This document shows positions 19,696 to 64,000 of a DNA stretch of 64,000 nt, in pieces. Source of the DNA: an uncultured virus (IMG/VR IMGVR_UViG_3300047312_000104). Lineage: Duplodnaviria > Heunggongvirae > Uroviricota > Caudoviricetes. Each line of letters opens with the position of its first letter. Positions within the stretch are counted from its first letter, which is position 1. The stretch lies in IMG/VR virus record IMGVR_UViG_3300047312_000104. The stretch is one strand, 5' to 3'. The notes beneath the pieces were generated by a model that worked only from the letters and a program-made list of their open reading frames with translations, ran no database searches and was not told where the DNA came from. The translations under genes were made by a program, and so were the position numbers.

Positions 19696-20762
19696 TAGAG
19701 ACCAAACCCGCGGTTAGCCAGATAACCGGCGGCGCCGCCTAAGAGCGCGTTACGTCCAACCCGCTTTCCGGCTGAGAGGGTTGACCCGGATAGTCCCTTC
19801 ATGGACTCCAACCGGTTAGCGAAATCCGACGGTCTCATCTTCATACGTTCTGGCATTCCTTGGCGAATCTTTTGAGCCAGTTCGACCTTAGGGTCGACAG
19901 AAGGTCCCTTGTATCCCTCAAGGATTTTCTGCGGTCCGCCGAGGCTAAGCTGGCCCTTGGTGCGCGAAGCTCTCGGTTCAGCCGGGGCAGACGGAAGAGT
20001 GGCGGGAGGCTGACCTTCCATCTGGTCTGCCTGTCTAAGGCCAGCCTGAATTTGGGCGAGGTCGTGCGGACCTCTGAAATGATTTGATAGTGTACGCCAC
20101 ATACCGTTACCAGCCGGCATTTCCTTGCCGGTGGCAAGATTGTAAGCTTGGCGAAGCGGATGGGCGAAATCCTCCGGAGTAGTGGGATCCATCACGTTTC
20201 CGGCATGCCTAGCCATGTTCGGCTCACCTCGGGCCGCCTTGGCTGGATCGCCCCCTACGGTATCCTTGGCTCCGACGGTTTTACCGCCAAGACTTTTGTC
20301 CAATGTTTGAGACGCAGCACTCGCCTCTGTCCCGGGAGCCGCGCCGCTCGATAGACGACCTAGGCCGCCGAGACTGCCCGTGAGTCCTTTATGATTCCAA
20401 GGTAAGCGATACTTACCCAAACCAAGTTCCCCACCGGCACCGCCGGCTAAGGCTCCCAGGACGGTCGATGATGCCCCAGTATTCTTTTCCAGCAATCCAG
20501 GGGCTTCTGGACGATTCAGAAACTTATTAGCCTTCTCGGCAATACTGTCATTTGGGCCAGCCACCTGAGGGGGCGATACGAAATCGTTAACCCCCTTGGA
20601 AATCTGGGGCCAATACTTGTGGCCATAGTAGGCACCAGCACCAAGTCCAGCCAATCCGAGACCGGTCGCCAGGTAATCCCGCCAGTGGGACTTCTGCTTA
20701 CCGCGATCCTCTTCGGCTTCGTTTGATGCCAAGAGATCTGCTGCCTGTTTGGCGAACGTCAC
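19695..20762 (-). CDS. Putative internal virion protein (K-x-A, Gly-rich hydrophobic helices)
   Basis: MTFAKQAA start; GLGLAGLGAGAYYG and ALLGGAAGYL segments. Confidence 0.5.
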   Translation of the reverse strand: MTFAKQAADLLASNEAEEDRGKQKSHWRDYLATGLGLAGLGAGAYYGHKYWPQISKGVNDFVSPPQVAGPNDSIAEKANKFLNRPEAPGLLEKNTGASSTVLGALAGGAGGELGLGKYRLPWNHKGLTGSLGGLGRLSSGAAPGTEASAASQTLDKSLGGKTVGAKDTVGGDPAKAARGEPNMARHAGNVMDPTTPEDFAHPLRQAYNLATGKEMPAGNGMWRTLSNHFRGPHDLAQIQAGLRQADQMEGQPPATLPSAPAEPRASRTKGQLSLGGPQKILEGYKGPSVDPKVELAQKIRQGMPERMKMRPSDFANRLESMKGLSGSTLSAGKRVGRNALLGGAAGYLANRGFGL

Positions 20763-22117
20763 TCTTCCGTACCCTTGGCCTGCCTGGCCCTCAAGAGGGT
20801 ATCGATCGGGACTCCGCCTTCTGACGCTAGATCTTGCCTAACCAGTGACTGGAGTTCGGCATCACCGAGGTTCGGGTTCGTTGAGCGAGCGCGGTTAAAC
20901 GCCTGGACCACATTCTGGATCGGGTGCTTGCCAATATACTCGTCACCGAGGAGCGATTCGATCTGGCCACGTCCAGCCGTGTTGGCTATCTCTTGCCGGG
21001 TGTGAAGCGAGATCGGGGTCTGGTTCGGCTGCTTGTACTCAGGAGCTTTCTCCCCGGGAGTATTGCCGGCTACTGAACCGTAAAAATCCACTGCCCCTTG
21101 GCCAGCTGCCCCACCGGAGCCGCTCGTTCCCGTCACCGCCCCGGGGATGGCCACGAGGTCGTCTGCCAACTGGGCTGCCATCGAAGGAGTGGCCAGTTTT
21201 GATAGCTGGGTTTCGATCTCGCCATAACGCTCATCGTAATAGCGGGCCTGGACCAGGTGGTCGGCCGCGCTCTTGAGCAAGCTCTCCACGTGGAGAGTCT
21301 CACGCACCAACTGGGCTTCACGCCGGTTGATCTCAAGGACTCCAGCGAGCTTCTCGCCTTCGGCCCGCTTGTGACCATATTTGGCCAGGTCAGCCTGGTC
21401 GAAGATCACTTCTAGGGTCGAATCAGCGCAGCCCTCATGGGCGCAGAGCTGTTCGATACGGGCGAACTTAGGAGCATCGGTACGGCGGAATTCGCCAGCC
21501 AGCTTCTCGATCGATTGGACTGCAAGATCACGAGCGCGGATGAACTCGGTTCTGGCATCATCCGCCATATGCCGGATCCGGCCGATCTTCTGATGGGCAT
21601 CGCGGCCAGGTGTGAACTCCACCGAACCGTCTGAGGCAACTTTTACCGACGCAGCCTTGATCGCGCAGAACGGCTCAGCGATCCCGCAGGCCTGACTGAA
21701 CACAGAAGCGTTGTCGACCACTGGAGCATCCAAGTAAACATTCAGGTCCTGGTTGGACCAGGCCGCCGCCTCTTTCTTCTTCTCCAGATCCGACTTCCGT
21801 TCCTTCTCCACGTCCTTTTCCTTACCCGGCACCACCTGGTCGGAATCATTCAGTTGCTGATTCACCACTTCGGCGTTGGTGAGCAGGAAAGGTCCGCCCT
21901 TCTCGTCAGCCTTTGAGTTGGTCAGGTGCGATAGGGTCTTGGAGTTATTAACAGCGTGGGAGACGAGGGTGACTTCCTTGGGGTTCAACCCGCCATCGTG
22001 AGCCACCTTCGACAAGGCGGCATCCGGCTTAGCCCCTGCGTTCATAAGACCGATGACTTGTTCGGCACACTTGTAAAGGTGGTCATGACGGTCGTCAGGC
22101 ATGAGCTTTAGAGTCAT
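20759..22117 (-). CDS. Putative internal head protein (K-x-A rich)
   Basis: 452 aa; YKCA, KEAA, IKAAS, VKVAS, EKLA, LKSAA, SKLA motifs. Confidence 0.5.
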   Translation of the reverse strand: MTLKLMPDDRHDHLYKCAEQVIGLMNAGAKPDAALSKVAHDGGLNPKEVTLVSHAVNNSKTLSHLTNSKADEKGGPFLLTNAEVVNQQLNDSDQVVPGKEKDVEKERKSDLEKKKEAAAWSNQDLNVYLDAPVVDNASVFSQACGIAEPFCAIKAASVKVASDGSVEFTPGRDAHQKIGRIRHMADDARTEFIRARDLAVQSIEKLAGEFRRTDAPKFARIEQLCAHEGCADSTLEVIFDQADLAKYGHKRAEGEKLAGVLEINRREAQLVRETLHVESLLKSAADHLVQARYYDERYGEIETQLSKLATPSMAAQLADDLVAIPGAVTGTSGSGGAAGQGAVDFYGSVAGNTPGEKAPEYKQPNQTPISLHTRQEIANTAGRGQIESLLGDEYIGKHPIQNVVQAFNRARSTNPNLGDAELQSLVRQDLASEGGVPIDTLLRARQAKGTEE

Positions 22118-54220: not shown

Positions 54221-56020
54221 TCAATCAACCAAGTGCCAAGACCCTTCGATGGAGTTAACCAGCTGGGATGTCCCGTTCGGATACTGGAGGGATGAACAGT
54301 GGAGCCAATTGGACGGCCCTTCGTTGTAGGATTCCTGAAGTTGCCCGCATGTACCAACCTGCTTAACCCGCCGTCTAATGGCTGGCGTGTGGGCGTGCCC
54401 GCTGGTGGATTGCCCGTAACTGTTCTCCATCGCGACCAACCCGCCCTTAGAACCGTTGGCCCCTACGTGCCCGTGGGCCCCGCATTCGACCCCGCCAATC
54501 TTATAATCCTCGTCGATCTTCAACCACCTGACTTGCTCAGGATGGGTGAGATGACGTTCGACGGCATGCCGAAGTGGGTCGAGGCCGCGAATCACAGCTC
54601 CGGCCAACTCAAGCCCGATAAGGGTGTTCTGCGGATCACGGTGGAAGCCAAGTTCAGCCAGGTATCGGTCTAGGAACTTATCGTGATTCGATTTAACGAT
54701 AATCACCTGTTCGTAATACTCGCACAGCAAGTTAACAACATCCGCCAAGCCCTTAACCTCTTGGCCGAGGTCAAGCTTGTTCATGGCGGACAGTTGGGCC
54801 CGCATGGTGAGGTTCTTAGCTTCATGGTGGTTGATCGACTTACCGTCGAAGGCGTCGTGGAGGATGATGGTCCTGGGACGAGCAACCTCGGTAAGGCTCC
54901 CCGGTCCATCCACGAAGGCCGCGAACGCCCCCTGGTCGGTTGCCCCGGCGTGGAGGTCACCCAACACGAGTGCCTCTGGGGCGTACGGACGAACCTTGCC
55001 GTCAGGCATATACAGCTGACCAAGATCCGCAAATGCCCCGCGAGCATCCGCTTCCAGCTGACGATAGTGGAACCTGTGCTCGTCAGCGAGTTCCACCACG
55101 ATTGCCGCCAAGGCGTGATCATGGTTGGCGATGTAAGCGGTCCGCATGCTCGCGAACGCGTGCGCCATCTCCGGGTCTGGATCGTAGCTGGGGACCGTCA
55201 CCGCCCCGGTGGTCATCAGGGCCACGGGAAGTTGGGTGTTGGAGTTAGGGACCAGCTTCAGGAATTGCTTGGGGGACCCGTAGATGAAGCTTCCGTCCCG
55301 TTGGCCAATTCGGGCCAGTCCGGTCAGAGGATCGATCTGCTTGGCAGAGCACCGGATTGCCGACACGAACAAGTTCCGGTTTAGCCGAATGTCCTCGGTC
55401 AGGATCAGCTTATCGGCAAAGGCTGCGTGCAACCCAGCCTTGGGGTGGGAGGCGGTATCGGTCGACGGTATGATCAGGAGGGCGGCATCGTGGATCTTGC
55501 AGTACGACTCCAATGAGGCCAAGAACCCAAAGTGCGGCTCACACCCCGTTACCGCGGTGGTGATGACGAACCTACGGTGCTTCGCCACCTGGTCCTTGAG
55601 GGCCTTGAATCGCTTGGGGGTAAAGAGATCGTCGATGATCTCGACGAAATACTCAGGGTGGGCCCCCTTGGAAGCCTCCATAAGGGATCCGAAACTATGG
55701 AAGTGCTCTTTAACCTGGTTGCGGGTGTACCCCGTTGTGGTGGTCAGCTCGGACCACGTGAGGTGGCGTCCAACCTTCTTGCACGCCTTCGCGTAACTCT
55801 CCAACACGTCTGACTTTTGTTTATCGTGCGCTTCGTAGATACGCGCCTTACCGGTGGTGATCTTCGGGATCTTAACCCCGGATCTGGCCGCTAATTTCAA
55901 TCGATCCCTAAAGGTGGTGCGGGCTAAGCCTAGCTCGGCGGCGGCGTCGGTAGCGTTCCCTTTGTGGCGCTTGAGGGCCTTGACGGCGGTGTCGAGGTCC
56001 TTCTGGCTGACTAGAGACAT
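54221..56020 (-). CDS. HTH + calcineurin-like metallophosphoesterase
   Basis: N-terminal HTH (AAAELGLARTTFRDR); GDLH, HDAFD, SNHD, HGH, GHAH motifs. Confidence 0.75.
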   Translation of the reverse strand: MSLVSQKDLDTAVKALKRHKGNATDAAAELGLARTTFRDRLKLAARSGVKIPKITTGKARIYEAHDKQKSDVLESYAKACKKVGRHLTWSELTTTTGYTRNQVKEHFHSFGSLMEASKGAHPEYFVEIIDDLFTPKRFKALKDQVAKHRRFVITTAVTGCEPHFGFLASLESYCKIHDAALLIIPSTDTASHPKAGLHAAFADKLILTEDIRLNRNLFVSAIRCSAKQIDPLTGLARIGQRDGSFIYGSPKQFLKLVPNSNTQLPVALMTTGAVTVPSYDPDPEMAHAFASMRTAYIANHDHALAAIVVELADEHRFHYRQLEADARGAFADLGQLYMPDGKVRPYAPEALVLGDLHAGATDQGAFAAFVDGPGSLTEVARPRTIILHDAFDGKSINHHEAKNLTMRAQLSAMNKLDLGQEVKGLADVVNLLCEYYEQVIIVKSNHDKFLDRYLAELGFHRDPQNTLIGLELAGAVIRGLDPLRHAVERHLTHPEQVRWLKIDEDYKIGGVECGAHGHVGANGSKGGLVAMENSYGQSTSGHAHTPAIRRRVKQVGTCGQLQESYNEGPSNWLHCSSLQYPNGTSQLVNSIEGSWHLVD

Positions 56021-56164
56021 CCGGCAGCTCCTGTGTGGAGATTAGGCAGTTACTGGCCTGAATCCTGTCAAAAGAAGCCTCGGTGTCTAGTGGAAACTTA
56101 ATAGTCAATCTTTACAAGTAGTTAATCCCCACCGCCGCCAGTAGTCATAACCCAATACTATAAA

Positions 56165-56240
56165 TGGTCCTACCCCTGGGAATTGAACCCAGATTGCTCG
56201 CTCTTCAGACGAGTGCCTTGACCACGTCGGCCAGAGTAGG
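56165..56240 (-). tRNA. tRNA-Phe(GAA)
   Basis: Cloverleaf; anticodon arm CTCGT-CTGAAGA-GCGAG; TTCAATT T-loop; encoded CCA. Confidence 0.92.
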
Positions 56241-56438
56241 TTACGGAAACATGCGCCTTACGGCTTCCATCTCGGCTTCTTCGATCGCCTTAACGGTTGT
56301 GCCTATAATGTCGGCGGCGGACTGTCTTGACGCATCCATGAGGTCCCCCATGTGGACCCCCTTGAGCCAAAGCATCCCCATCGACGGTGAGTCGAAGAGA
56401 TCGCTGATGTCATGGTCGTGGGGCCAAATGTGTCTCAC
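56241..56438 (-). CDS. Small hypothetical protein inside tRNA cluster
   Basis: GTG start with AGGA upstream; stop codon abuts tRNA-Phe position 1. Confidence 0.45.
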   Translation of the reverse strand: MRHIWPHDHDISDLFDSPSMGMLWLKGVHMGDLMDASRQSAADIIGTTVKAIEEAEMEAVRRMFP

Positions 56439-56453
56439 GTGAAGTCCTTTGAA

Positions 56454-56546
56454 TGGTGGGAACCGGTGGAGTCGGACCACATGCCTCGTAGAGGATCGGA
56501 GCTACAATCCGATGGCAGGCCAACCCCGCCCTTATTTGCGTTTCCC
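56454..56546 (-). tRNA. tRNA-Tyr(GTA), atypical 8/4 fold
   Basis: TCGGA-TTGTAGC-TCCGA anticodon arm, variable arm, A73, CCA. Confidence 0.75.
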
Positions 56547-56550
56547 ATGA

Positions 56551-56636
56551 TGGCGGAAGCCGGTGATCCTGCCTCACAGACCCGAAGGTCCCAACCGCTT
56601 AGCAAGCGGCGTCGAGCCTTGCTCGATTCGACTTCC
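56551..56636 (-). tRNA. tRNA-Ser(GCT), 8/4 fold
   Basis: GCCGC-TTGCTAA-GCGGT anticodon arm, long variable arm, G73, CCA. Confidence 0.82.
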
Positions 56637-56640
56637 AAAA

Positions 56641-56730
56641 TGGCGGCGCGCTGAGCGGTCGAAGCCCCAACCCTCTCGGGTCTCATCCGGGTTCAAACCG
56701 GAGCCCACCCCATTGGTGAGTTAACGCGCC
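56641..56730 (-). tRNA. tRNA-Ser(TGA), 8/4 fold
   Basis: TCCGG-TTTGAAC-CCGGA anticodon arm, long variable arm, G73, CCA. Confidence 0.85.
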
Positions 56731-56739
56731 ATAGGTTAT

Positions 56740-56772
56740 AAAAGAACAAACCCCCGGGTTTTCCCGGGGGTT
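56740..56772 (-). terminator. Intrinsic terminator (attenuator) in front of Ser/Ser/Tyr/Phe tRNAs
   Basis: AACCCCCGGG-AAAA-CCCGGGGGTT then TGTTCTTTT, ~10 nt before tRNA-Ser. Confidence 0.85.
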
Positions 56773-56800
56773 CTTGAGTCGCAGTCTCGTGGAGACGTTG

Positions 56801-56869
56801 TTACTCTCGACCTCCGGCATATGCCGAGGAACTTGAATAACTAAACGAAAAGGACGACTGGGCGATCAT
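56801..56869 (-). CDS. Ser/Phe/Tyr-rich leader peptide MIAQSSFSFSYSSSSAYAGGRE
   Basis: 22-codon ORF with 8 Ser, 2 Phe, 2 Tyr codons just upstream of the terminator. Confidence 0.8.
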   Translation of the reverse strand: MIAQSSFSFSYSSSSAYAGGRE

Positions 56870-56899
56870 GTGATTAATTATTGGGATCGGGATAGAAAC

Positions 56900-57205
56900 T
56901 CAAGTGTCTTCTTCCGGCATGTCCCGTTCTAGGTCGAACGACGGATCGTACACGATGTCCTCTACGATGTCGCACAGGTCCTTAGGGTCCCACCCGGCAT
57001 CCTCGCAATGGGTCCACACGCACTCAACCATGTTGGCCGCTGCCCACAAAGCCGACTCGATCTGACCGCTGTGGTGGAGAGCCATCCGAAGTTTGTTCAG
57101 ACCAGTATCTTCATCTTGGGTCACAATCCCAATCACGACCGCGATCCCGCGCTTCTTCAGCGCTTGGATCAACTCACCATCGGTCGCCATATCGATTGGG
57201 GTCAC
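56900..57205 (-). CDS. Hypothetical acidic protein
   Basis: 101 aa ORF. Confidence 0.5.
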   Translation of the reverse strand: MTPIDMATDGELIQALKKRGIAVVIGIVTQDEDTGLNKLRMALHHSGQIESALWAAANMVECVWTHCEDAGWDPKDLCDIVEDIVYDPSFDLERDMPEEDT

Positions 57206-57882
57206 GAGACAACTACCAGGTCAGGTTTGACCAACAAGGTAGTGGTCGTGACCGCGCGTCCAACTCTCGCCGCCACAGTAGTGTCGGGAGTAACGTCGTA
57301 ACGGCCGGGCGTGGAGGTCAGCCAGTAGTCCGATCCAACCGTAAGGGTCGCGGCCCCGACGATAAGAGACCAGTCAGGAAGATCCAAATGATCGCCCGCT
57401 ACCAAGACAGTCCCGGGAGTACTGATGAGAGCGTCGGCGGCCATGATGCCGATTAGTTTGTAAACCTTGGACCCGTCCACGAATGCTTGCGCGTAAGCGA
57501 GCCCAGCCCCTGAGGCCCTCACGGCCATCCCCTGGAGGAGCGCCGCCGAGGTGGTGATCTGAAGAGCCTGGGAGGTTGAGGTGACGGTTACGGTCGAGGA
57601 CCCATCGTAGAATCGAAGGTATGTCGTCCCTGAATCGAGCTCCAACCAGGTGTCGCCCGCGACGGGGCTACTGGGGGCCCCGGTGAGGACCCTAAACCAG
57701 ACCCGACCGTCGCCACGAATTCTGTGCTGGGCTACCCCGTGGTTTTGCCATTCCTTAACCACATCGGCGTCATTAACCGTGATGAGGGTCGATTCGGTTG
57801 CGGCGGTAGAGGCCGGGTTGGCCTGATCCAAGGTGGTCCTGGAAGTATTCCCAGGGGTCCCAACATTACGGATCACGGGCAT
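57202..57882 (-). CDS. Putative virion structural (fibre/decoration-like) protein
   Basis: APSSPVAGDTW and LTVGSDYWLTSTPG...VGRAVTTTTLLV patterns. Confidence 0.5.
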   Translation of the reverse strand: MPVIRNVGTPGNTSRTTLDQANPASTAATESTLITVNDADVVKEWQNHGVAQHRIRGDGRVWFRVLTGAPSSPVAGDTWLELDSGTTYLRFYDGSSTVTVTSTSQALQITTSAALLQGMAVRASGAGLAYAQAFVDGSKVYKLIGIMAADALISTPGTVLVAGDHLDLPDWSLIVGAATLTVGSDYWLTSTPGRYDVTPDTTVAARVGRAVTTTTLLVKPDLVVVS

Positions 57883-57956
57883 TCCGTCACGTTAGACCAA
57901 GGGTCACGATTGACAATCCGGACCCATCATCATGATGGGGCCCCAAGGAGACTCCT

Positions 57957-58673
57957 ATGTCGGTAAAGATGTCCATCGGGGTGTGCGGGCGGGCCAGACA
58001 TGGGAAAGATACCTCGGCGCTACTCATGAAGCGCATCTTCGAGGACCGTAAGATCCCCTGCCAGGTCATCAGCTTTGCCGACCCCCTGAAGGACTTCCTG
58101 ACCGCCATGGTGGGTAGGGCAGAGCCGTTCCGGGGTACCAACGAACAGAGGTCAGCCCCCATCCCCGAGCTCCTATGGGCTGACCTTGCCCCCAGATTCC
58201 TCCGTGGAGCCCTAAAGTCCTGGGGACCTGGGTGGTGTCGCCCTATCGTTTATCTTCTGCCTGAGAGGTTCCTGGTGGGCCTGGTGGGGGAGCATCTAGG
58301 GTACCACCCCAACGGACGGCAGATGATGCAGCTCTTCGGGACCGAGACCATCCGGGAGAACCTTTGTGAGTCGACCTGGCTCAAGATAGCAGACAACCGG
58401 GCCCGTGGGTTCAACGGGGTGACGATCGTGGCCGACGTCCGATTCCCCAATGAGGCCCGCCCCAAGTGGGCCGGGGGAATGTTCGATCTAGTCATAAAGG
58501 TAGTCAGGGCAGGCCAGCCGGTCATCAACCACCCCTCGGAGTGGAGCGTCGACCTGGTCCCCCCTGGGTACTTCCGTGCCGTGATAGAGAACAACGGGAC
58601 CGAGGACGACTTATTTTTGAAATTGTTAGAGATCATTGACGATGAGTTTAAGATTTATAACCACAATCATTGA
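57957..58673 (+). CDS. Deoxynucleoside monophosphate kinase
   Basis: GRARHGKDT P-loop, SFADPLK, RQMMQLFGTE..R, DVRFPNE, HPSE. Confidence 0.85.
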   Translation: MSVKMSIGVCGRARHGKDTSALLMKRIFEDRKIPCQVISFADPLKDFLTAMVGRAEPFRGTNEQRSAPIPELLWADLAPRFLRGALKSWGPGWCRPIVYLLPERFLVGLVGEHLGYHPNGRQMMQLFGTETIRENLCESTWLKIADNRARGFNGVTIVADVRFPNEARPKWAGGMFDLVIKVVRAGQPVINHPSEWSVDLVPPGYFRAVIENNGTEDDLFLKLLEIIDDEFKIYNHNH

Positions 58674-58903
58674 AAGCACTTATGAAACAATTTATGGCCT
58701 TCACAGACCCAGAGACCAGTAAGGGGATCCTAATAGACATCCAGCACATCATAGCGATCAAACCAGCGAAGGTTGTGTCGGGGCCCCTCCAGACTACGAT
58801 CGAGATGGAGTATGGGGACATGGTCGTCTTGGAGCACCCAGATGTAGTGTTTGGGCGCTTTAAGGACATGGCCGCCCATGGGGTCACGATCTTTCTAAAG
58901 TAG
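58670..58903 (+). CDS. Small hypothetical protein
   Basis: ~74-77 aa ORF following dNMP kinase. Confidence 0.45.
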   Translation: MKALMKQFMAFTDPETSKGILIDIQHIIAIKPAKVVSGPLQTTIEMEYGDMVVLEHPDVVFGRFKDMAAHGVTIFLK

Positions 58904-58926
58904 CAGTCAAGGACAGGAGGCAGCGC

Positions 58927-59334
58927 TTGAAGCCGATTTTTCAACCGAACGATGTAGATTGCTTCCGCGCCTGTTTCGCAACACTGTTGGAAATACCCAT
59001 TGGGCTCGTCCCGAGGACCCCTAAGCGGGCCGGGCTCCGTGGGCAGCTTAAGTTTTACCAAAAATGGCTAAAACGTATGGACCTGACATACGTCGAAATC
59101 CCGCTGCTACCGGGTGGCAGAACTCCGTGGACTACTCTGGATACCCCAACGCATGGGATCCTGACCATCCAGGAGCGATTAAGTAAAAATAACCACGCGG
59201 TTGTTGCTTACGTGATAGATGATTCGATCCATATCGCGTTTGATCCCAGCACCACTGGGGTCGTGTACGAATCAGATAGGTTCGTCTCAATCGGGTTTGT
59301 GGTCAAGGCAGCTAAGGCGCCGCCCCCAGCTTAG
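58927..59334 (+). CDS. Putative papain-like (C39-type) cysteine peptidase-fold protein
   Basis: Q....DCFRAC, HAVV, FDPS (Cys-His-Asp order). Confidence 0.5.
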   Translation: MKPIFQPNDVDCFRACFATLLEIPIGLVPRTPKRAGLRGQLKFYQKWLKRMDLTYVEIPLLPGGRTPWTTLDTPTHGILTIQERLSKNNHAVVAYVIDDSIHIAFDPSTTGVVYESDRFVSIGFVVKAAKAPPPA

Positions 59335-59585
59335 TAGCCGGCTATCATGACGAGGTCCAGTCTCGTCCCCGGTAAGGCTCCGGCTTCCCACAGGGTCTTT
59401 CGTCGATCCAAGGTAAGCCCCACATCGGCAGTGACCAGACAGGGGACCCCATGGTTGTGCCCGAAGGTAAACGCCGCCTCTTTGGCGGCGTCACCCACGA
59501 GCGTCATTGAGTTCCACACGAACCGCCGCGGGTGCGGGGTAACCCACGACCACACGTAGCATGATAGGTCGAATCCCTGCCCCAC
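59331..59585 (-). CDS. Ubiquitin-like-fold small protein (tentative)
   Basis: 84 aa; 'LDRRKTLWEAGALPGTRLDLV' resembles a beta-grasp C-terminus. Confidence 0.35.
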   Translation of the reverse strand: MGQGFDLSCYVWSWVTPHPRRFVWNSMTLVGDAAKEAAFTFGHNHGVPCLVTADVGLTLDRRKTLWEAGALPGTRLDLVMIAGY

Positions 59586-59588
59586 TTG

Positions 59589-60104
59589 TTACTTCCGCGG
59601 GCGCAACTTATTGATGGCCCGCTGGGCCTTCTGTCGTTCGTAAGGCTCAAGCTTATCGATGAACAGTATCGAGTTGAGGTGATCCAACTCGTGCTGCGCG
59701 ACCGTAGCGAACAACCCCACCGAATCCCATATCTGGTGGTTACCCATTTCGTCTTGGTACTTCAGGGTAAACCGTGCGTGTCTCTTGACCTGACCGTGGA
59801 CACCGGGGAGTGACAGGCACGACTCCCGATACACTGAAACACCCGAGGGGTCCGCGATCTCGGGATTGCACACCACAGTAGGGGTCCCTTCGGCGTAGTC
59901 CCGGTGGGGAACCAGAACGAAGAACCGCTCGGGGATCCCACACTGGGGGGCCGCGATAGCGAGCCCATTAGCCTGGCGGCATGTCCGGCGCATCAGGTCG
60001 ATGATACCGAGGAACCCAACGGTCCCGAAGTCTTGCTCGGGGACCGGAACAGTGGGGGCCCGGAGTTCCTGGGACGGGTATCGGTAGATCGGGAGAGGCT
60101 TCAT
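59589..60104 (-). CDS. def: Peptide deformylase
   Basis: GLAIAAPQCG, ESCLSLPG, QHELDHL motifs. Confidence 0.93.
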   Translation of the reverse strand: MKPLPIYRYPSQELRAPTVPVPEQDFGTVGFLGIIDLMRRTCRQANGLAIAAPQCGIPERFFVLVPHRDYAEGTPTVVCNPEIADPSGVSVYRESCLSLPGVHGQVKRHARFTLKYQDEMGNHQIWDSVGLFATVAQHELDHLNSILFIDKLEPYERQKAQRAINKLRPRK

Positions 60105-60289
60105 TCGTCGGTCTCCGGCAGTGTGGTTCCGGTGGCCCCGTAGAGCCCCATGAATACCAACCCCAATTCCTTGCAGCGTTCCTTGGCTTCCGCTTCGTCC
60201 ACCCCTTCAACTATTTCGATGAAGTGGGAAGTCTTACGGGTCATGGGGTCGTGGATCGGCATGGCCGCCGACCAGAGCAGCTTCTCCAT
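60101..60289 (-). CDS. Small hypothetical protein
   Basis: 62 aa, coupled to neighbours. Confidence 0.45.
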   Translation of the reverse strand: MEKLLWSAAMPIHDPMTRKTSHFIEIVEGVDEAEAKERCKELGLVFMGLYGATGTTLPETDE

Positions 60290-60504
60290 TAGATCTCTCC
60301 AGAGAGTTGCGACACGGTCAGGCCGGTGAGCTTGGCCATGCGGCGCATCAGCCGCAGAGACGGGGTGGGGCGTTGTCCGGATTCGATGAGGGAAAGGTAC
60401 GCGGGGGATATCTCAAGCTTGGTGGCCATCTCGAACTGGCGCAACTTCAGCTGCTTCTCTCGGGCGTCCTTCCAGATGTCGCCCAGCTTACGGCGCTTTG
60501 CCAT
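60289..60504 (-). CDS. XRE-family HTH regulator
   Basis: MATKLEISPAYLSLIESGQR.TPS. Confidence 0.88.
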   Translation of the reverse strand: MAKRRKLGDIWKDAREKQLKLRQFEMATKLEISPAYLSLIESGQRPTPSLRLMRRMAKLTGLTVSQLSGEI

Positions 60505-61102
60505 TTTGAACCTTCCGCAATACCTCGATCGAGTTCTTGATACAAGCTAGCTTGTCCGACAGCGAAACGATCTGGCGCATAAGACTAGACGGTTTGCCCA
60601 GATCAGCAGCCACCGCCACCGAGATGGCCAAGAGGGATCCTAGGATCGGTTCCAGCAGATCAGCCATGTCCTTCAAGACGCTCAACTGATCAATCCCGAT
60701 CCCACCGGCCGGCTGGGCGACCGTCCAGGTTCCGTCATTAACGTTCGTGGTAGTGAGGACAGATTCGATCTTGTCGCGCGTCTCCCCCACGACTTGCATG
60801 AAGTTCACGTCAGTCTTAGCTGGCGTCACCGGTGTCGGGGCCAACGGGGCAACCTCAATGGGGCGTTCAGTCGCGATGTCGTACCCGGGACGAATCTGGA
60901 GGGTCGAGTAAGCCTTCTCGCGCGGCGGTTCCTGGATGAGCGAACCGTCCTGTCGTTTACCGACTGAACTAGGGAGTCCCCACCGGAAAGCCTTCTCCAT
61001 GTAGATAGGCTTATGGGTGTACACGGCAGTCATGCCGTGGAAGTCACAGGCGAGCCAGATGTACTCAGGGGGAATGTTCTTCCAGAAGGGATCTTCGGTC
61101 AT
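60488..61102 (-). CDS. Hypothetical protein
   Basis: 204 aa ORF. Confidence 0.5.
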   Translation of the reverse strand: MTEDPFWKNIPPEYIWLACDFHGMTAVYTHKPIYMEKAFRWGLPSSVGKRQDGSLIQEPPREKAYSTLQIRPGYDIATERPIEVAPLAPTPVTPAKTDVNFMQVVGETRDKIESVLTTTNVNDGTWTVAQPAGGIGIDQLSVLKDMADLLEPILGSLLAISVAVAADLGKPSSLMRQIVSLSDKLACIKNSIEVLRKVQNGKAP

Positions 61103-61108
61103 CGGGGC

Positions 61109-61303
61109 CTATTCGGAGTTGCGGGTGTAGTGGAAGATGATGGTGGCGACTGAGGCCGCGAGGAGGCAGCCATACACGGGATAGCCGTATCTGGCCATGA
61201 CGATCGACAAGATGACCACGATGGCCCAGAAGAACACGATGGCGCACAGACTATGCCCGACCCTGGCACAGAGGGCCTTGATGCACAATAGGAGGAAGTT
61301 CAC
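61109..61303 (-). CDS. Small membrane protein
   Basis: Two hydrophobic helices. Confidence 0.5.
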   Translation of the reverse strand: MNFLLLCIKALCARVGHSLCAIVFFWAIVVILSIVMARYGYPVYGCLLAASVATIIFHYTRNSE

Positions 61304-61662
61304 GCGGGGGTCTCCTCGGAAGATCCGCTCGTTACCGATTCCATGACGACTATCCGGATCAGGTCGTTGGAGTCTAGCTGTAAAGTAAACTTGCCGTCAA
61401 AGATATCGGTCAACTGCTGGTCCGAGATGTCGAGAGTTTCACTAGAAGGGAACTGGTAGGAGGTTTCGAACCTGAAGAACACTTGGGGGTCGTGAGGGTA
61501 AGCCCCGGCCTGGATGTCCTTGGACGTCATCCCGAAAGGACAACAGGTCAGGGTCCCACGGTACTTCCGATCTCCTACGACCAGGTCAGCCTCGGGGACA
61601 CTATGGAGAGGCTTCTGGACCGCAAAATCCCCATACCCGTTACACGATAGGAGGTGTGGCAT
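61300..61662 (-). CDS. Hypothetical protein
   Basis: 120 aa ORF. Confidence 0.45.
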   Translation of the reverse strand: MPHLLSCNGYGDFAVQKPLHSVPEADLVVGDRKYRGTLTCCPFGMTSKDIQAGAYPHDPQVFFRFETSYQFPSSETLDISDQQLTDIFDGKFTLQLDSNDLIRIVVMESVTSGSSEETPA

Positions 61663-62104
61663 CGGGGGTCTCCTTTACGGCCAGATCGGCAATGAGGAGT
61701 TCCTTGGGGAACACGACCGTCATCTCGGGCTGGGCCTCCAGGACCTTCTCGGACGATTCCCCGACCGCCTCGACCTCGCGGTCCTGGAGATCCTGGTCGT
61801 ATGAGTTGACCCGTTCCTTCTTCCCAAACGATTCAGGGTCGTACGGGGCTCTCTGGCTGGAGAGCTTGGCTCGCGACTCGTCCGTCAAAGGGTTACCTTG
61901 ATCGTCCAAGGGGACCCCCGGGGAGACCAGGCGGTCTCGGTCCGCCACGTACATACCACGGAGCAATATATTGTGCCGGTAGGCGTCTATGCCCCTTAGG
62001 AGCTTCGACTGTTGGATCATCCGGATGTGCTGGATTGGGTCAAACCCGAGAGGATCCTTAGACATCCCGGGGGTCTTTGTGGTTGGCGGCGTAGCGGATG
62101 ACAT
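61640..62104 (-). CDS. Hypothetical protein
   Basis: 154 aa ORF (start may be MSKD at 62065). Confidence 0.45.
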   Translation of the reverse strand: MSSATPPTTKTPGMSKDPLGFDPIQHIRMIQQSKLLRGIDAYRHNILLRGMYVADRDRLVSPGVPLDDQGNPLTDESRAKLSSQRAPYDPESFGKKERVNSYDQDLQDREVEAVGESSEKVLEAQPEMTVVFPKELLIADLAVKETPDATPPIV

Positions 62105-62666
62105 CTTTCTCTGATGTCAGGATATGTGATACATCGACTTGACCGTTTGGAGCCTGGGCCGGAGTCGTGATGGACTCGTCGTTACGTACCATGGTTATAT
62201 CACCATTCGCCCCAACCCGAAGCTTCTGGACCGGTATCGTGACGCCTACGCTCGCGTTAATCGAGTCGGCCAACGGGACAGGATACATGATGCAAGGCGA
62301 CACGTTACGGTCGTGCAGGTTAACGGTGTCGCCCGGGTAACCGATGATCTCGGTAGGGATTCGACGGGCTTTGGACTTGGATCCAGAATCGTTGAAGTGA
62401 CTCGGGGTTCCGCCGGTTTCTAGGGCCTTGGCCCGCATAACCTTGTGGTAGTCATAGCCTGGACGCCAGGCCGAGAAGGCCTCTTGGAACTCTCTCTTGG
62501 CATCGAAAGCTTTCTGAGCGTCGTCGACCGCCGTTTTAGCTTTAGCCGCGGCCTTCTCGTCTGCCGCCTGTTTTAAGTAAATGACGATAATCGGCCAGCC
62601 GAGGATCGCGGCCGAGAAGACTATGGTGGGGACGACGACCCACATGAACCAAGAGAGGGTAAACAT
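62058..62666 (-). CDS. Membrane-anchored hypothetical protein
   Basis: N-terminal transmembrane helix. Confidence 0.5.
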   Translation of the reverse strand: MFTLSWFMWVVVPTIVFSAAILGWPIIVIYLKQAADEKAAAKAKTAVDDAQKAFDAKREFQEAFSAWRPGYDYHKVMRAKALETGGTPSHFNDSGSKSKARRIPTEIIGYPGDTVNLHDRNVSPCIMYPVPLADSINASVGVTIPVQKLRVGANGDITMVRNDESITTPAQAPNGQVDVSHILTSEKDVIRYAANHKDPRDV

Positions 62667-62667
62667 A

Positions 62668-62919
62668 TTAGGCCTTCACTGTGAGGAGTTCTTTGAAGAT
62701 ACGCTTGAGCCGGCCAGGCCCATCATACGGGCCATGGTACGAAACTGTCCAGGAGGCAACGTCGTCACGACCAGCAACGGTTGACCGGTACTGGGACCCA
62801 AGGGGAGTCGGGTGAGCGCGAAACAGGGCGCCGCAGATGTGGCGTGTAAGCCACCAGAGGACCTGACCGAGCAGGAGCCCTAGACCCAAGTTAAGGATAA
62901 AGGTTAGGTGGAAGTCCAA
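62668..62919 (-). CDS. Small membrane-anchored protein
   Basis: N-terminal hydrophobic helix; TTG start. Confidence 0.4.
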   Translation of the reverse strand: MDFHLTFILNLGLGLLLGQVLWWLTRHICGALFRAHPTPLGSQYRSTVAGRDDVASWTVSYHGPYDGPGRLKRIFKELLTVKA

Positions 62920-62970
62920 GGGGTCCCCTTATGGGCTACAGGATAAGGGGATTAACTGTGAGTCAAGAGA

Positions 62971-63045
62971 TGGTTCACGAGCAGGGATTCAAACCCCGGT
63001 TCATCGCTTCAAAGGCGACAGTCTTATCAATTAGACGACTCGTGA
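62971..63045 (-). tRNA. tRNA-Gln(TTG)
   Basis: GTCGC-CTTTGAA-GCGAT; U1-A72; CCA. Confidence 0.9.
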
Positions 63046-63049
63046 GTGA

Positions 63050-63126
63050 TGGTTGCCCCAGGAGGTCTCGAACCTCCATCACCGGCTTCAGAGACCGGGG
63101 TTATTACCTGGTTAAACTACAGGGCA
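63050..63126 (-). tRNA. tRNA-Gln(CTG)
   Basis: CCGGT-CTCTGAA-GCCGG; U1-A72; CCA. Confidence 0.9.
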
Positions 63127-63131
63127 TCGAA

Positions 63132-63208
63132 TGGTGGGGGCGGTGGGATTTGCACCCACAGGGAAGATGCGTTTAAGGCATCCACGTCTGCTGTTCCGTC
63201 ACACCCCT
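63132..63208 (-). tRNA. tRNA-Leu(TAA), short variable loop
   Basis: GATGC-CTTAAAC-GCATC; A73; CCA. Confidence 0.85.
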
Positions 63209-63211
63209 AGA

Positions 63212-63287
63212 TGGTCCCCCTCCCCGGATTTGAACCGGGATCAGACTGTTTTTGAAACAGCCGCCTCTGCCGTTGGGCTAGAAGGGG
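63212..63287 (-). tRNA. tRNA-Leu(CAA), short variable loop
   Basis: GCTGT-TTCAAAA-ACAGT; A73; CCA. Confidence 0.88.
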
Positions 63288-63288
63288 A

Positions 63289-63364
63289 TGGTACCGATCC
63301 TGGGGGTTGCACCCAGACTTTGTAGTCTCTCAAACTACTGCCTCTGCTATTGGGCTAGACCGGT
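63289..63364 (-). tRNA. tRNA-Leu(GAG), short variable loop
   Basis: GTAGT-TTGAGAG-ACTAC; A73; CCA. Confidence 0.88.
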
Positions 63365-63367
63365 AAG

Positions 63368-63443
63368 TGGTACCGAGAGAGGGATTTGCACCCACACTGA
63401 ACTGGTTCTAAGCCAGCTGCCTCTGCTGTTGGGCTATCTCGGC
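63368..63443 (-). tRNA. tRNA-Leu(TAG), short variable loop
   Basis: GCTGG-CTTAGAA-CCAGT; A73; CCA. Confidence 0.88.
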
Positions 63444-63473
63444 GTGATTACTGTATTGATGTCAAAGATCTAT

Positions 63474-63508
63474 AAAACACAAAAACCCGACCTTTCGGCC
63501 GGGTTTTT
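63474..63508 (-). terminator. Intrinsic terminator (attenuator) in front of Leu x4/Gln x2 tRNAs
   Basis: AAAAACCCGGCC-GAAA-GGTCGGGTTTTT then GTGTTTT. Confidence 0.85.
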
Positions 63509-63549
63509 GGGTTCACCTTTACGGTGTTTTCGGTCTAGGCGACCATCCC

Positions 63550-63615
63550 TTAACCACGGCCATGAGGCTGAGGTAACTGTTGGAGCAACAGGAGGAGGGA
63601 CAGGGTGGTACGCAT
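63550..63615 (-). CDS. Leu/Gln-rich leader peptide MRTTLSLLLLLQQLPQPHGRG
   Basis: 21-codon ORF with 7 Leu (CTG, CTC, TTG, TTA) and 3 Gln (CAA, CAG) codons upstream of the terminator. Confidence 0.8.
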   Translation of the reverse strand: MRTTLSLLLLLQQLPQPHGRG

Positions 63616-63625
63616 GACGACTCTA

Positions 63626-63653
63626 AGGATAAACCATAGGGGATCTGATGCAA
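63626..63653 (-). promoter_or_regulatory. Candidate sigma70-like promoter for the Leu/Gln leader
   Basis: TTGCAT-N16-TATCCT ending 10 nt before the leader ATG. Confidence 0.4.
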
Positions 63654-63679
63654 GCCCCTATGTGGTAGATATCTCAAGA

Positions 63680-63758
63680 TGGTCCAAGTGGGAGGGCTGT
63701 TCACCTCCTAGCTCCGCGTTAAAAGCACGGCCCCTCGCCTCATTCGGGTTTCACTTGG
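63680..63758 (-). tRNA. tRNA-Lys(TTT), atypical T-loop
   Basis: Acceptor CCAAGTG/CACTTGG, CCGTG-CTTTTAA-CGCGG, T-stem GGAGG/CCTCC with 8-nt loop, CCA. Confidence 0.75.
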
Positions 63759-64000
63759 TTAAGTTTTTTCTTACGTCTTAGATCTCGTTGATATGCATTA
63801 TTAGCCTCGCGGCATACGTCGCAGCGGCAATAGTGTCGGTAACTGGATTTGGTGCCGTGTAGTCCTTTCGTAGGCGACTGCCCGAGATCAACGATGGTTT
63901 TAGCAGTATGACAAGTTTGACAGAGAATTTGACACTTAATGAGCTCAGCCTCAAACCTGGCCTTGGAAACGCTCCACTTATTGCCCAATCCAAAAAGTTT
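63740..64000 (-). CDS. HNH endonuclease, C-terminal part (start outside window)
   Basis: KCQILCQTCHTAKT followed by HG...Y..YCRCDVC Zn motif. Confidence 0.7.
   Translation of the reverse strand, partial: KLFGLGNKWSVSKARFEAELIKCQILCQTCHTAKTIVDLGQSPTKGLHGTKSSYRHYCRCDVCREANNAYQRDLRRKKKLNQVKPE

What the first reader, a model, noticed from the sequence alone, without database searches (positions are those of the whole stretch)
56740..56869. Ser/Phe/Tyr attenuator with matching antiterminator
Leader MIAQSSFSFSYSSSSAYAGGRE has 12 of 13 consecutive codons being Ser (TCG, TCC, TCA, AGT), Phe (TTT) or Tyr (TAT). Both Ser codon boxes are sampled, matching tRNA-Ser(TGA) and tRNA-Ser(GCT), plus Tyr(GTA) and Phe(GAA). 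CCGGAGGT (56810-56817) at the leader end is complementary at 7/8 positions to the terminator 5' arm ACCCCCGG (56764-56771). GAGT/ACTC and a GTCTC-CAC-GAGAC hairpin lie in between, giving a plausible exclusive antiterminator.
Basis: partly seen in the sequence, partly recalled or inferred. Interest (0 to 1): 0.88.

Follow-up and report, generated by a model that had tools for sequence, protein, structure and literature searches.

The report
Codon-matched attenuators gating phage tRNA genes
A soil phage puts a tiny reading frame, written in the codons its own tRNAs read, and a switchable transcription stop in front of each of its two tRNA gene clusters, so it probably makes these tRNAs only when ribosomes run short of them.

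Summary

- **Unit 1 (minus strand).** A 22-codon ORF (56869-56801) has 12 of 13 consecutive Ser/Phe/Tyr codons. It ends 28 nt before an 11-pair terminator. Ten nt after the T-tract begins an array of tRNA-Ser(UGA), tRNA-Ser(GCU), tRNA-Tyr(GUA), a small ORF and tRNA-Phe(GAA).
- **Unit 2, not in the finding.** ORF 63615-63550 has 10 Leu/Gln codons in 13. A 13-pair terminator follows, then four tRNA-Leu and two tRNA-Gln genes. So 2 of 2 tRNA arrays in the window carry a leader matched to their own anticodons, with almost no cross-match.
- **Statistics.** Each codon run is the unique window-wide maximum for its amino-acid set. The two terminators are the strongest in the 64 kb.
- **Folding.** With ribosome masks both units give the three classical states. 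The antiterminators beat all shuffles (z -3.2 to -4.0).

**Limits.** No close relative's DNA could be reached, so there is no covariation test. There is no RNA evidence, and neither leader has a clear Shine-Dalgarno.

**Prior work.** Six literature searches found no attenuator described for tRNA genes. This scan has noted the same idea before on other phage DNA; those notes were not tested here.

The parts
56876..56904 (-). Unit 1 candidate promoter (CTTGAG, 16 nt, AATAAT). It would start the transcript at or next to the leader ATG and overlaps the stop codon of the upstream 101-aa gene.
   Evidence: Read from the sequence. The pattern was made post hoc and is not enriched in the window: 3 seen against 5.2 +/- 2.3 expected. 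Inference only.
56801..56869 (-). Unit 1 leader ORF, 22 codons plus TAA: MIAQSSFSFSYSSSSAYAGGRE
   Evidence: It has the highest Ser/Phe/Tyr fraction (12 of 21 non-start codons) of 764 small ORFs in six frames.
56819..56857 (-). Unit 1 regulatory codons 5-17: TCG TCC TTT TCG TTT AGT TAT TCA AGT TCC TCG GCA TAT
   Evidence: 12 of 13 are Ser/Phe/Tyr, the unique window-wide maximum. All six two-fold codons are the minor U-ending ones, joint p about 0.001.
56823..56829 (-). Unit 1 region 1 (CCTCGGC). It pairs with region 2. In free RNA the helix extends back over codons 8-17.
   Evidence: Folds (the 1:2 hairpin is -9.7 kcal/mol).
56810..56818 (-). Unit 1 region 2 (GCCGGAGGT, leader codons 18-20). 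It pairs either with region 1 or with the terminator 5' arm.
56776..56806 (-). Unit 1 inner helices of the antiterminator (GAGT/ACTC and GTCTC-CAC-GAGAC)
56740..56773 (-). Unit 1 intrinsic terminator: 5' arm 56773-56763 (region 3), loop 56762-56759, 3' arm 56758-56748 (region 4), T-rich tail 56747-56740
   Evidence: 11 pairs, 8 G-C; -22.1 kcal/mol, z -2.98.
56641..56730 (-). tRNA-Ser(UGA), non-canonical 8/4 acceptor/T branch, 6-bp D stem, long variable arm, G73, CCA encoded. It starts 10 nt after the terminator tail.
   Evidence: Found only with ARAGORN -ps; the MFE is the cloverleaf. Missed by ARAGORN default and Rfam.
56551..56636 (-). tRNA-Ser(GCU), 8/4 structure, long variable arm, G73, CCA encoded
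   Evidence: The MFE is an 8/4 cloverleaf, z -2.70. No tRNA finder called it.
56454..56546 (-). tRNA-Tyr(GUA)-like gene: 8-bp acceptor with one A/G mismatch, 4-bp T stem, 6-bp D and anticodon stems, A73, CCA encoded. The least certain of the three.
   Evidence: The constrained cloverleaf is -33.0 against an MFE of -35.5 kcal/mol. No tRNA finder called it.
56241..56381 (-). Small ORF (46 aa from the ATG at 56381) between tRNA-Tyr and tRNA-Phe
   Evidence: no Pfam family.
56165..56240 (-). tRNA-Phe(GAA), canonical
   Evidence: 52.9 bits.
63626..63654 (-). Unit 2 candidate promoter (CTTGCA, 17 nt, TATCCT)
   Evidence: Not statistically supported; inference only.
63550..63615 (-). Unit 2 leader ORF, 21 codons plus TAA: MRTTLSLLLLLQQLPQPHGRG
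   Evidence: Read. It has the highest Leu/Gln fraction (10 of 20) of 764 small ORFs.
63568..63603 (-). Unit 2 regulatory codons 5-16: CTG TCC CTC CTC CTG TTG CTC CAA CAG TTA CCT CAG
   Evidence: 10 Leu/Gln in 13 codons is the window-wide maximum. Each of the six downstream anticodons has a codon it can read; the chance of such full coverage is about 0.11.
63567..63576 (-). Unit 2 region 1, pairing weakly with region 2. In free RNA codons 2-5 also pair with the stretch just after the stop codon.
   Evidence: 1:2 is -8.3 kcal/mol.
63552..63561 (-). Unit 2 region 2 (GGCCGTGGTT, the last leader codons and the first base of the stop). It pairs with the terminator 5' arm AACCCGGCC.
   Evidence: -28.9 kcal/mol, z -3.93, 0 of 200 shuffles.
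63470..63509 (-). Unit 2 intrinsic terminator: stem 63509-63480 (13 pairs) plus T-rich tail 63479-63470
   Evidence: (-22.1 kcal/mol, z -5.51).
62971..63443 (-). tRNA array Leu(UAG), Leu(GAG), Leu(CAA), Leu(UAA), Gln(CUG), Gln(UUG). The first tRNA starts 36 nt after the terminator stem.

Best explanation
These are two ribosome-mediated (leader-peptide) transcription attenuators, one in front of each tRNA array of a large soil phage.

How it would work. A transcript coming from the upstream genes, or from a weak candidate promoter just upstream, first carries a 21-22-codon ORF. The middle of that ORF is written in codons read by the tRNAs encoded behind the terminator.
- If those codons are decoded quickly, the ribosome runs on to the stop codon and covers region 2. 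The terminator hairpin forms and transcription stops before the tRNA genes.
- If the matching charged tRNAs are scarce, the ribosome stalls in the codon run and covers region 1. Region 2 (the last leader codons) is then free to pair with the terminator's 5' arm, and RNA polymerase reads through into the tRNA genes.
- With no translation at all, 1:2 pairing leaves the terminator free to form.

Because the products are the very tRNAs being sensed, each unit would be a negative-feedback loop on tRNA supply, tuned separately for Ser/Tyr/Phe and for Leu/Gln.

Shown here: the ORFs, the codon match, the terminators, the alternative pairings and their statistics. Inferred: translation of the leaders, coupling to transcription, the promoter, and the response to tRNA supply.
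For: 1. Replication inside one genome. 2 of 2 tRNA arrays in the window are preceded by a short ORF and a terminator.
2. Specific codon match. Leader 1 has 12 Ser/Phe/Tyr and 1 Leu/Gln codon among 21. Leader 2 has 10 Leu/Gln and 1 Ser/Phe/Tyr codon among 20. Each run is the unique window-wide maximum over all 13-codon windows in six frames, and each ORF ranks first of 764 small ORFs by fraction. Binomial P is 9e-7 and 7e-5.
3. Codon choice. In leader 1 all six Phe, Tyr and AGY codons are the minor U-ending, wobble-read codons (joint p about 0.001). Leader 2 samples a codon for each of the six anticodons (p about 0.11).
4. Terminators. These two are the strongest terminator-like sites in the 64 kb (11 and 13 pairs). 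Elsewhere such sites are no more frequent than in shuffles.
5. No room for another promoter. tRNA-Ser(UGA) starts 10 nt after the T-tract, and the first tRNA-Leu starts 36 nt after the stem. The arrays must therefore be reached through the terminators.
6. Three-state logic in both units under ribosome masks.
7. Antiterminator stability. The energies are -22.6 and -28.9 kcal/mol against shuffle means of -13.7 and -17.9: 0 of 200 shuffles each and 0 of 1000 each. They match or exceed the terminators at -22.1.
8. The 8/4 tRNA-Ser type is documented in alpha-proteobacterial phages (PMC5389517, passages seen), so the odd genes behind unit 1 are credible tRNAs.
Against: - No conservation or covariation test was possible. 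The closest proteins (P0003 at 71%, P0004-6 at 58%) lie on contigs I could not fetch.
- The relatives I could reach are distant, at 47% identity or less. They lack the unit: of 22 distinct tRNA arrays held, 2 have only weak terminator-like sites upstream.
- Neither leader has a clear Shine-Dalgarno, though many genes of this window lack one too.
- The candidate promoters are not statistically supported.
- The folds are thermodynamic only; kinetics and pausing are unknown.
- Ser(GCU) and Tyr(GUA) were called by no tRNA finder, and the Tyr cloverleaf is 2.5 kcal/mol above its MFE.
- The two TCC codons need four-way wobble by anticodon UGA.
- Stalling also reports amino-acid starvation, which extra tRNA would not cure.
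- In unit 1, read-through may run on into the A1-like gene, so tRNAs may not be the only cargo.
Confidence: 0.75

Rival explanations
1. These are plain operon-end terminators. The hairpins merely end the upstream gene strings, the short ORFs are chance frames in low-complexity spacers, and the tRNAs are made by leaky read-through or from unrecognised phage promoters.
For: Both terminators follow co-directional genes. Neither leader has a clear Shine-Dalgarno. There are no relatives to show conservation. The promoter motif is not enriched.
Against: It needs two independent coincidences of codon set with downstream anticodons, each the window-wide maximum. It also needs two antiterminators that beat every shuffle. 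The terminators lie 128 and about 230 nt past the upstream stop codons, not directly after them.
Confidence: 0.08
2. These are real attenuators, but general sensors of translation or amino-acid status. On this view they gate the early genes downstream (the T5 A1-like gene and beyond), the tRNAs are passengers, and the codon match reflects phage codon needs rather than feedback.
For: No strong terminator separates tRNA-Phe from the A1-like gene. Stalling reports charged tRNA, and so also amino-acid supply (established attenuation knowledge).
Against: The two leaders use disjoint codon sets that track their own arrays. The tRNAs are the first genes after each terminator, 10 and 36 nt away. A promoter-like site lies right after the unit 2 array: at 62967, and also at 62751-62722.
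Confidence: 0.1
3. The short ORFs encode functional micro-peptides (for example a Leu-rich membrane peptide) and the terminators are unrelated to their translation.
For: Leader 2 has a hydrophobic Leu run.
Against: The last codons of both ORFs form the strand that pairs with the terminator arm. The compositions match the tRNA sets. Leader 1 is Ser-rich and not membrane-like.
Confidence: 0.03

Closest known systems
Class I leader-peptide attenuators of amino-acid operons (trpL, hisL, leuL, pheL, thrL, ilvL) and of pheST (pheM). Named from my own knowledge. An alpha-proteobacterial trpL example is PMC6614838, of which I saw only the search listing.
   Same: A short ORF with a run of regulatory codons. 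Regions 1:2, 2:3 and 3:4 pair in mutually exclusive ways. An intrinsic terminator stands before the regulated genes. Ribosome position decides the outcome.
   Different: The regulated genes are tRNAs, not enzymes or synthetases. The codon run is multi-amino-acid and samples the isoacceptors encoded downstream. The sensed molecule is the product itself. The element is in a phage and present twice with different codon sets. Neither unit reaches the gathering score of any Rfam leader family.
Multivalent attenuators (thr, ilvGMEDA leaders); recalled
   Same: One leader senses several amino acids at once.
   Different: There the mix reflects a shared biosynthetic pathway. Here it reflects the anticodon content of an array.
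T-box riboswitches
   Same: A terminator/antiterminator decision that depends on tRNA status.
   Different: A T-box binds uncharged tRNA directly and needs no translation. No T-box match was found at E up to 10, and an ORF is present here.
Inducible tRNA L-array (trn operon) of Anabaena PCC 7120, PMC8421152
   Same: A supernumerary tRNA operon that is silent by default and induced when translation is impaired (abstract).
   Different: It is a cellular array of 23 tRNAs. The words attenuat-, leader, terminator, uORF and small ORF do not occur in that text, so no such mechanism is proposed there.
(8/4) tRNA-Ser of alpha-proteobacterial phages, Mukai et al., PMC5389517
   Same: An 8-bp acceptor, a 4-bp T stem, a long D stem and a long variable arm, in phage tRNA clusters (passages seen).
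   Different: That paper reports Ser and His species. Here a Tyr(GUA) gene also folds as 8/4. In a word search of its text 'terminator' occurs once, in a plasmid description; I did not search that text for 'attenuator' or 'leader'.
Earlier notes of this scan on other phages
   Same: A leader ORF plus terminator in front of phage tRNA arrays, read as a tRNA-supply sensor.
   Different: They concern other genomes and are AI notes that I did not test. This window adds two units with disjoint, array-matched codon sets in one genome.

Membership tests
Ribosome-mediated (leader-peptide) transcription attenuator | A short ORF with start and stop lying upstream of, and close to, a terminator | tested here: met
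   ORFs 56869-56801 and 63615-63550. Their stops lie 28 and 41 nt before the terminator stems.
Ribosome-mediated (leader-peptide) transcription attenuator | A cluster of regulatory codons cognate to what the operon supplies | tested here: met
   12 of 13 Ser/Phe/Tyr and 10 of 13 Leu/Gln, each the window-wide maximum; binomial P.
Ribosome-mediated (leader-peptide) transcription attenuator | An intrinsic terminator between the leader and the regulated genes | tested here: met
   11- and 13-pair stems with T-rich tails; both -22.1 kcal/mol.
Ribosome-mediated (leader-peptide) transcription attenuator | An antiterminator that uses the terminator 5' arm and excludes the terminator | tested here: met
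   Predicted in both units. 0 of 1000 and 0 of 200 shuffles do as well. In silico only.
Ribosome-mediated (leader-peptide) transcription attenuator | An anti-antiterminator (1:2) overlapping the regulatory codons, so that a stalled ribosome frees region 2 | tested here: met
   Free-RNA folds pair region 2 with the codon run. Masks at codons 5-13 (unit 1) and 5-14 (unit 2) release it. The 1:2 helix of unit 2 is weak at -8.3 kcal/mol.
Ribosome-mediated (leader-peptide) transcription attenuator | The leader is translated, and read-through responds to the supply of charged tRNA | not testable with these tools
   No experimental or expression data could be brought to bear. Neither leader has a clear Shine-Dalgarno.
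Ribosome-mediated (leader-peptide) transcription attenuator | Conservation or covariation of the alternative helices among relatives | not testable with these tools
   No close relative in viral contigs, genome contigs, metagenome contigs or the phage records.
T-box riboswitch | Stem I with a specifier loop, and the conserved T-box sequence | tested here: not met
   No T-box match at E up to 10 in either unit.
Rfam amino-acid leader families (His, Leu, Thr, Trp, Phe leaders) | A score at or above the family's gathering threshold | tested here: not met
   Only weak wrong-strand hits: His_leader 19.5 bits against 49, Leu_leader 11.4 bits against 50.
(8/4) tRNA (allo-tRNA-like), PMC5389517 | A 12-bp acceptor branch split 8/4, a long D stem with a small loop, and a long variable arm | tested here: met
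   The MFE shows it for both Ser genes. For the Tyr gene it appears only under constraint and with one acceptor mismatch.
(8/4) tRNA (allo-tRNA-like), PMC5389517 | Aminoacylation and use in translation | not testable with these tools
   G73 (both Ser) and A73 (Tyr) are read from the sequence. The identity rules are recalled.

The most novel reading that the evidence does not exclude
The phage runs a set of closed-loop tRNA homeostats. Each tRNA operon is switched on by ribosome stalling at a test ORF written in that operon's own codons, and switched off again by its own products. The cargo is structurally non-canonical throughout: 8/4 Ser and Tyr tRNAs, and Leu tRNAs without the long arm. The loops may therefore exist to replace host Leu, Ser and Tyr tRNAs (the species that normally carry a long variable arm), plus Phe and Gln tRNAs, when these are lost during infection, for example to tRNA-targeting host defences, with versions such nucleases might not recognise.
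Probability: 0.3. Interest if true: 0.92.

Novelty: new variant of a known kind. Interest (0 to 1): 0.86.

Why it matters
Leader-peptide attenuation is a textbook mechanism, but it is known for genes that make or charge amino acids. Here the same switch appears to govern tRNA genes, and the leader senses the very molecules the operon produces.

- **Regulated phage tRNAs.** It would mean phage tRNA genes are made on demand rather than constitutively. That bears on why phages carry tRNAs at all: codon bias, or replacement of depleted host tRNAs.
- **A built-in specificity control.** One genome holds two units with disjoint codon sets. Unit 1 should answer only to Ser/Tyr/Phe tRNAs and unit 2 only to Leu/Gln tRNAs, so the idea can be tested directly.
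- **A practical use.** Such units would be natural compact sensors of the availability of specific tRNAs.

Tried and rejected
**Search for relatives of the window**
- Megablast and blastn of the region against phage records gave no match.
- blastn of unit 2 hit only single tRNA-Leu genes of unrelated phages: 20 records, none covering 80% of the query.
- tblastn with the A1-like protein gave a best hit of 35%, Ochrobactrum phage vB_OspM_OC. Its A1 neighbourhood and its 18.5-kb tRNA region (38% G+C) show no such unit.

**Search of the contig collections**
- With the single protein, viral contigs gave none.
- With alignment A1 it gave 80 loci, best 47%.
- Genome contigs gave 3 loci, best 44%.
- Metagenome contigs with alignment A2 gave 23 loci, best full-length match 31%.
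- Two typed tRNA patterns in viral contigs gave 0 stretches and 4 stretches. The 4 were T-arm matches in unrelated DNA: in three of the four loci inside unrelated canonical tRNA genes, and ARAGORN found no tRNA in L004.

**tRNA arrays of the distant relatives**
- ARAGORN found tRNAs in 12 of 83 loci, none with the unit next to the A1 homologue.
- tRNA arrays in whole related contigs were inspected: 4 of 5 contigs had tRNAs.
- A scripted count found 22 distinct arrays, of which 2 had weak terminator-like sites upstream. Arrays with under 350 nt held upstream, and duplicates, were dropped before the count.

**Sequencing runs**
- No RNA holder was listed.
- Laying four DNA runs gave no variant rows inside either unit. 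Unit 2 was barely covered.

**Other**
- The promoter motif is not enriched: 3 seen against 5.2 expected.
- No Rfam family reaches threshold in either unit.
- Two further relaxed ARAGORN calls (19943-20037 and 21910-22004) and the Ser/Phe/Tyr-rich frame at +21753 are antisense to long ORFs, so I rejected them.
- The window's own genome is not held.
- Earlier-findings look-ups by place, by relatives and by sequence were empty.

Full report
**Context.** The window is phage DNA.
- It encodes a dihydrofolate reductase, a peptide deformylase, tail-fibre-like proteins and a T5 A1-like protein.
- The nearest phage record is Ochrobactrum phage vB_OspM_OC, at only 35% identity on the A1-like protein.
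- The contig is 159,059 bases long, and no whole genome is held for it.
- Around the finding all genes run on the minus strand.

**The observation.**
- On the minus strand, ORF 56869-56801 reads MIAQSSFSFSYSSSSAYAGGRE. Codons 5-17 are 12 Ser/Phe/Tyr of 13.
- Its stop lies 28 nt before an 11-pair (8 G-C) hairpin, 56773-56748, which is followed by a T-rich tail.

**What lies behind the terminator.**
- Ten nt after the T-tract starts a gene that ARAGORN calls tRNA-Ser(UGA) only at its relaxed threshold.
- Two further tRNA-like genes follow, both with encoded CCA: Ser(GCU) at 56636-56551 and Tyr(GUA) at 56546-56454. I found these by reading and folding. ARAGORN at its default setting and Rfam miss all three.
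- Both Ser genes fold, without constraint, into cloverleaves with an 8-bp acceptor, a 4-bp T stem, a 6-bp D stem and a long variable arm.
- The Tyr gene does so only under constraint. It then has one acceptor mismatch and sits 2.5 kcal/mol above its MFE.
- tRNAs with this 8/4 structure, including tRNA-Ser in clusters of alpha-proteobacterial phages, are described in PMC5389517 (passages seen).
- A 46-aa ORF and a canonical tRNA-Phe(GAA) follow, and then the A1-like gene.

**A second unit.** The window's other tRNA array (62971-63443) holds Leu UAG, GAG, CAA and UAA, and Gln CUG and UUG. Upstream of it I found the same design.
- ORF 63615-63550 reads MRTTLSLLLLLQQLPQPHGRG.
- A 13-pair terminator follows at 63509-63480 with a T-rich tail.
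- The first tRNA starts 36 nt later.
- The leader uses CTG, CTC, TTG, TTA, CAA and CAG, so every one of the six anticodons has a codon it can read. Given this window's codon usage, such full coverage has a chance of about 0.11.
- So 2 of 2 arrays carry a leader matched to their own anticodons. The cross-match is 1 codon each way.

**Is it chance?**
- Over all 13-codon windows in six frames, the maximum for Ser/Phe/Tyr (12) occurs once, at leader 1. The maximum for Leu/Gln (10) occurs only at leader 2.
- Among 764 ORFs of 12-45 codons, each leader ranks first by fraction for its own set.
- Binomial P against the window's codon usage is 9e-7 for 12 of 21 and 7e-5 for 10 of 20.
- By count, one other small ORF has more Ser/Phe/Tyr codons (17 of 34, at +21753). 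It is antisense to a 452-aa gene.
- In leader 1, all six Phe, Tyr and AGY codons are the minor U-ending ones (usage 0.26, 0.32 and 0.39; joint p about 0.001). These are read by wobble, which would sharpen sensitivity; that last step is inference.
- The two terminators are the strongest terminator-like sites in the 64 kb. Elsewhere the counts of such sites equal those in shuffles.

**Mechanism in silico.** I folded the nascent RNA up to the terminator loop with a 30-nt ribosome mask. Both units behave alike.

| State | Result in both units |
|---|---|
| Free RNA | Region 2 pairs back onto the codon run, the terminator 5' arm stays single-stranded, and the terminator can form |
| Ribosome stalled (unit 1 codons 5-13, unit 2 codons 5-14) | The last leader codons pair with the terminator 5' arm |
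| Ribosome at the stop codon | Region 2 is covered and the terminator forms |

| Helix | Unit 1 (kcal/mol) | Unit 2 (kcal/mol) |
|---|---|---|
| 1:2 | -9.7 | -8.3 |
| 2:3 (antiterminator) | -22.3 | -28.9 |
| 3:4 (terminator) | -22.1 | -21.9 |

The antiterminators beat every shuffle: 0 of 1000 each in my test, which kept the terminator arm fixed (z -3.8 and -4.0), and 0 of 200 each in the fold tool (z -3.20 and -3.93).

**Weak points.**
- Neither leader has a clear Shine-Dalgarno, though many genes of this window lack one too.
- A CTTGNN, 16-17 nt, -10-like motif sits just upstream of both leaders. I derived the pattern from those two sites, and it is not enriched: 3 seen against 5.2 +/- 2.3 expected.
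- Transcription may equally come from the upstream genes.
- In unit 1 no strong terminator separates the tRNAs from the A1-like gene, so read-through may serve more than tRNAs.
- The folds are thermodynamic only.

**Comparative evidence could not be obtained.**
- Closer relatives exist as proteins: P0003 at 71%, P0004-P0006 at 58% and P0007 at 55%. Their DNA is in none of the collections I could scan.
- The reachable relatives are at 47% identity or less. They do not have the unit next to their A1 gene, nor in front of 22 distinct tRNA arrays I examined, where 2 had only weak terminator-like sites.
- The Ochrobactrum phage does not have it either.
- The feature is therefore not general in this broad phage group.

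**Known or new?**
- Six full-text searches returned no paper that describes a leader-peptide attenuator in front of tRNA genes. I judged these from listings and abstract starts.
- The nearest functional parallel is the translational-stress-inducible tRNA array of Anabaena, PMC8421152 (abstract). Its text holds none of the words attenuat-, leader, terminator or uORF.
- Neither unit reaches threshold for any Rfam leader family or for the T-box.
- This scan has noted the same idea on other phage genomes. Those are AI notes that I did not test. I had already found unit 2 before I looked them up.

**Verdict.** These are most likely two ribosome-mediated attenuators, each sensing the supply of the tRNAs its own operon encodes (confidence 0.75). 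The mechanism is of a known kind, applied to a new class of genes and with feedback logic. The two units with disjoint codon sets in one genome make a ready-made specificity test.

Noticed in passing
window 56454-56730 (-): Three tRNA genes with an 8-bp acceptor, a 4-bp T stem, a 6-bp D stem and encoded CCA: Ser(UGA), Ser(GCU) and Tyr(GUA). ARAGORN at its default setting and Rfam miss all three. In the passages I read, PMC5389517 reports 8/4 Ser and His in phages, so an 8/4 tRNA-Tyr may be unreported. The Tyr gene also has an 8-nt connector before its D stem.
   Followed up: partly
window 63132-63443 (-): The four tRNA-Leu genes are only 76-77 nt long, with no long variable arm and an A73 discriminator. 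blastn links single members to tRNA-Leu genes annotated in Bacillus, Mycobacterium, Microbacterium and Pseudomonas phages; in the rows whose match spans a whole tRNA-Leu gene, that gene is also only about 73-77 nt long. Together with the 8/4 Ser and Tyr genes, all the Leu, Ser and Tyr tRNA genes seen in this window are non-canonical.
   Followed up: partly
window 56241-56381 (-): A small ORF (46 aa from the ATG) lies between tRNA-Tyr and tRNA-Phe and ends at the first base before tRNA-Phe. It has no Pfam family.
   Followed up: partly
window 62938-62967 (-) and 62722-62751 (-): Promoter-like sites lie directly after the Gln tRNAs: CTTGAC, 16 nt, TATCCT, and also TGGACA, 18 nt, TATGAT. If real, the protein genes behind unit 2 have their own promoter and that attenuator would gate only the tRNA array.
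   Followed up: no
L115 910-1209 (+), contig of L018 (G002): A distantly related 176-kb viral contig carries a bacterial class A RNase P RNA gene (179.6 bits against a threshold of 100) inside its tRNA array.
   Followed up: partly
L105 1498-1575 (-), same contig (G002): ARAGORN calls a tRNA with anticodon CUA (an amber reader) in that related contig, and Rfam confirms it as a tRNA. This may mean TAG suppression or recoding in that phage.
   Followed up: no
window 54221-56020 (-): The T5 A1-like protein (PHROG 1745, E 1.5e-93) carries an N-terminal Fis-type HTH_8 domain. Its closest relatives keep that domain.
   Followed up: no
window 56100-64000: Pieces identical to the window occur at low depth in contigs of runs recorded as soil and rhizosphere metagenomes: X1 (possibly the source sample) and X2. 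X3 holds a diverged strain, with up to 18 differences in a 151-base piece.
   Followed up: partly
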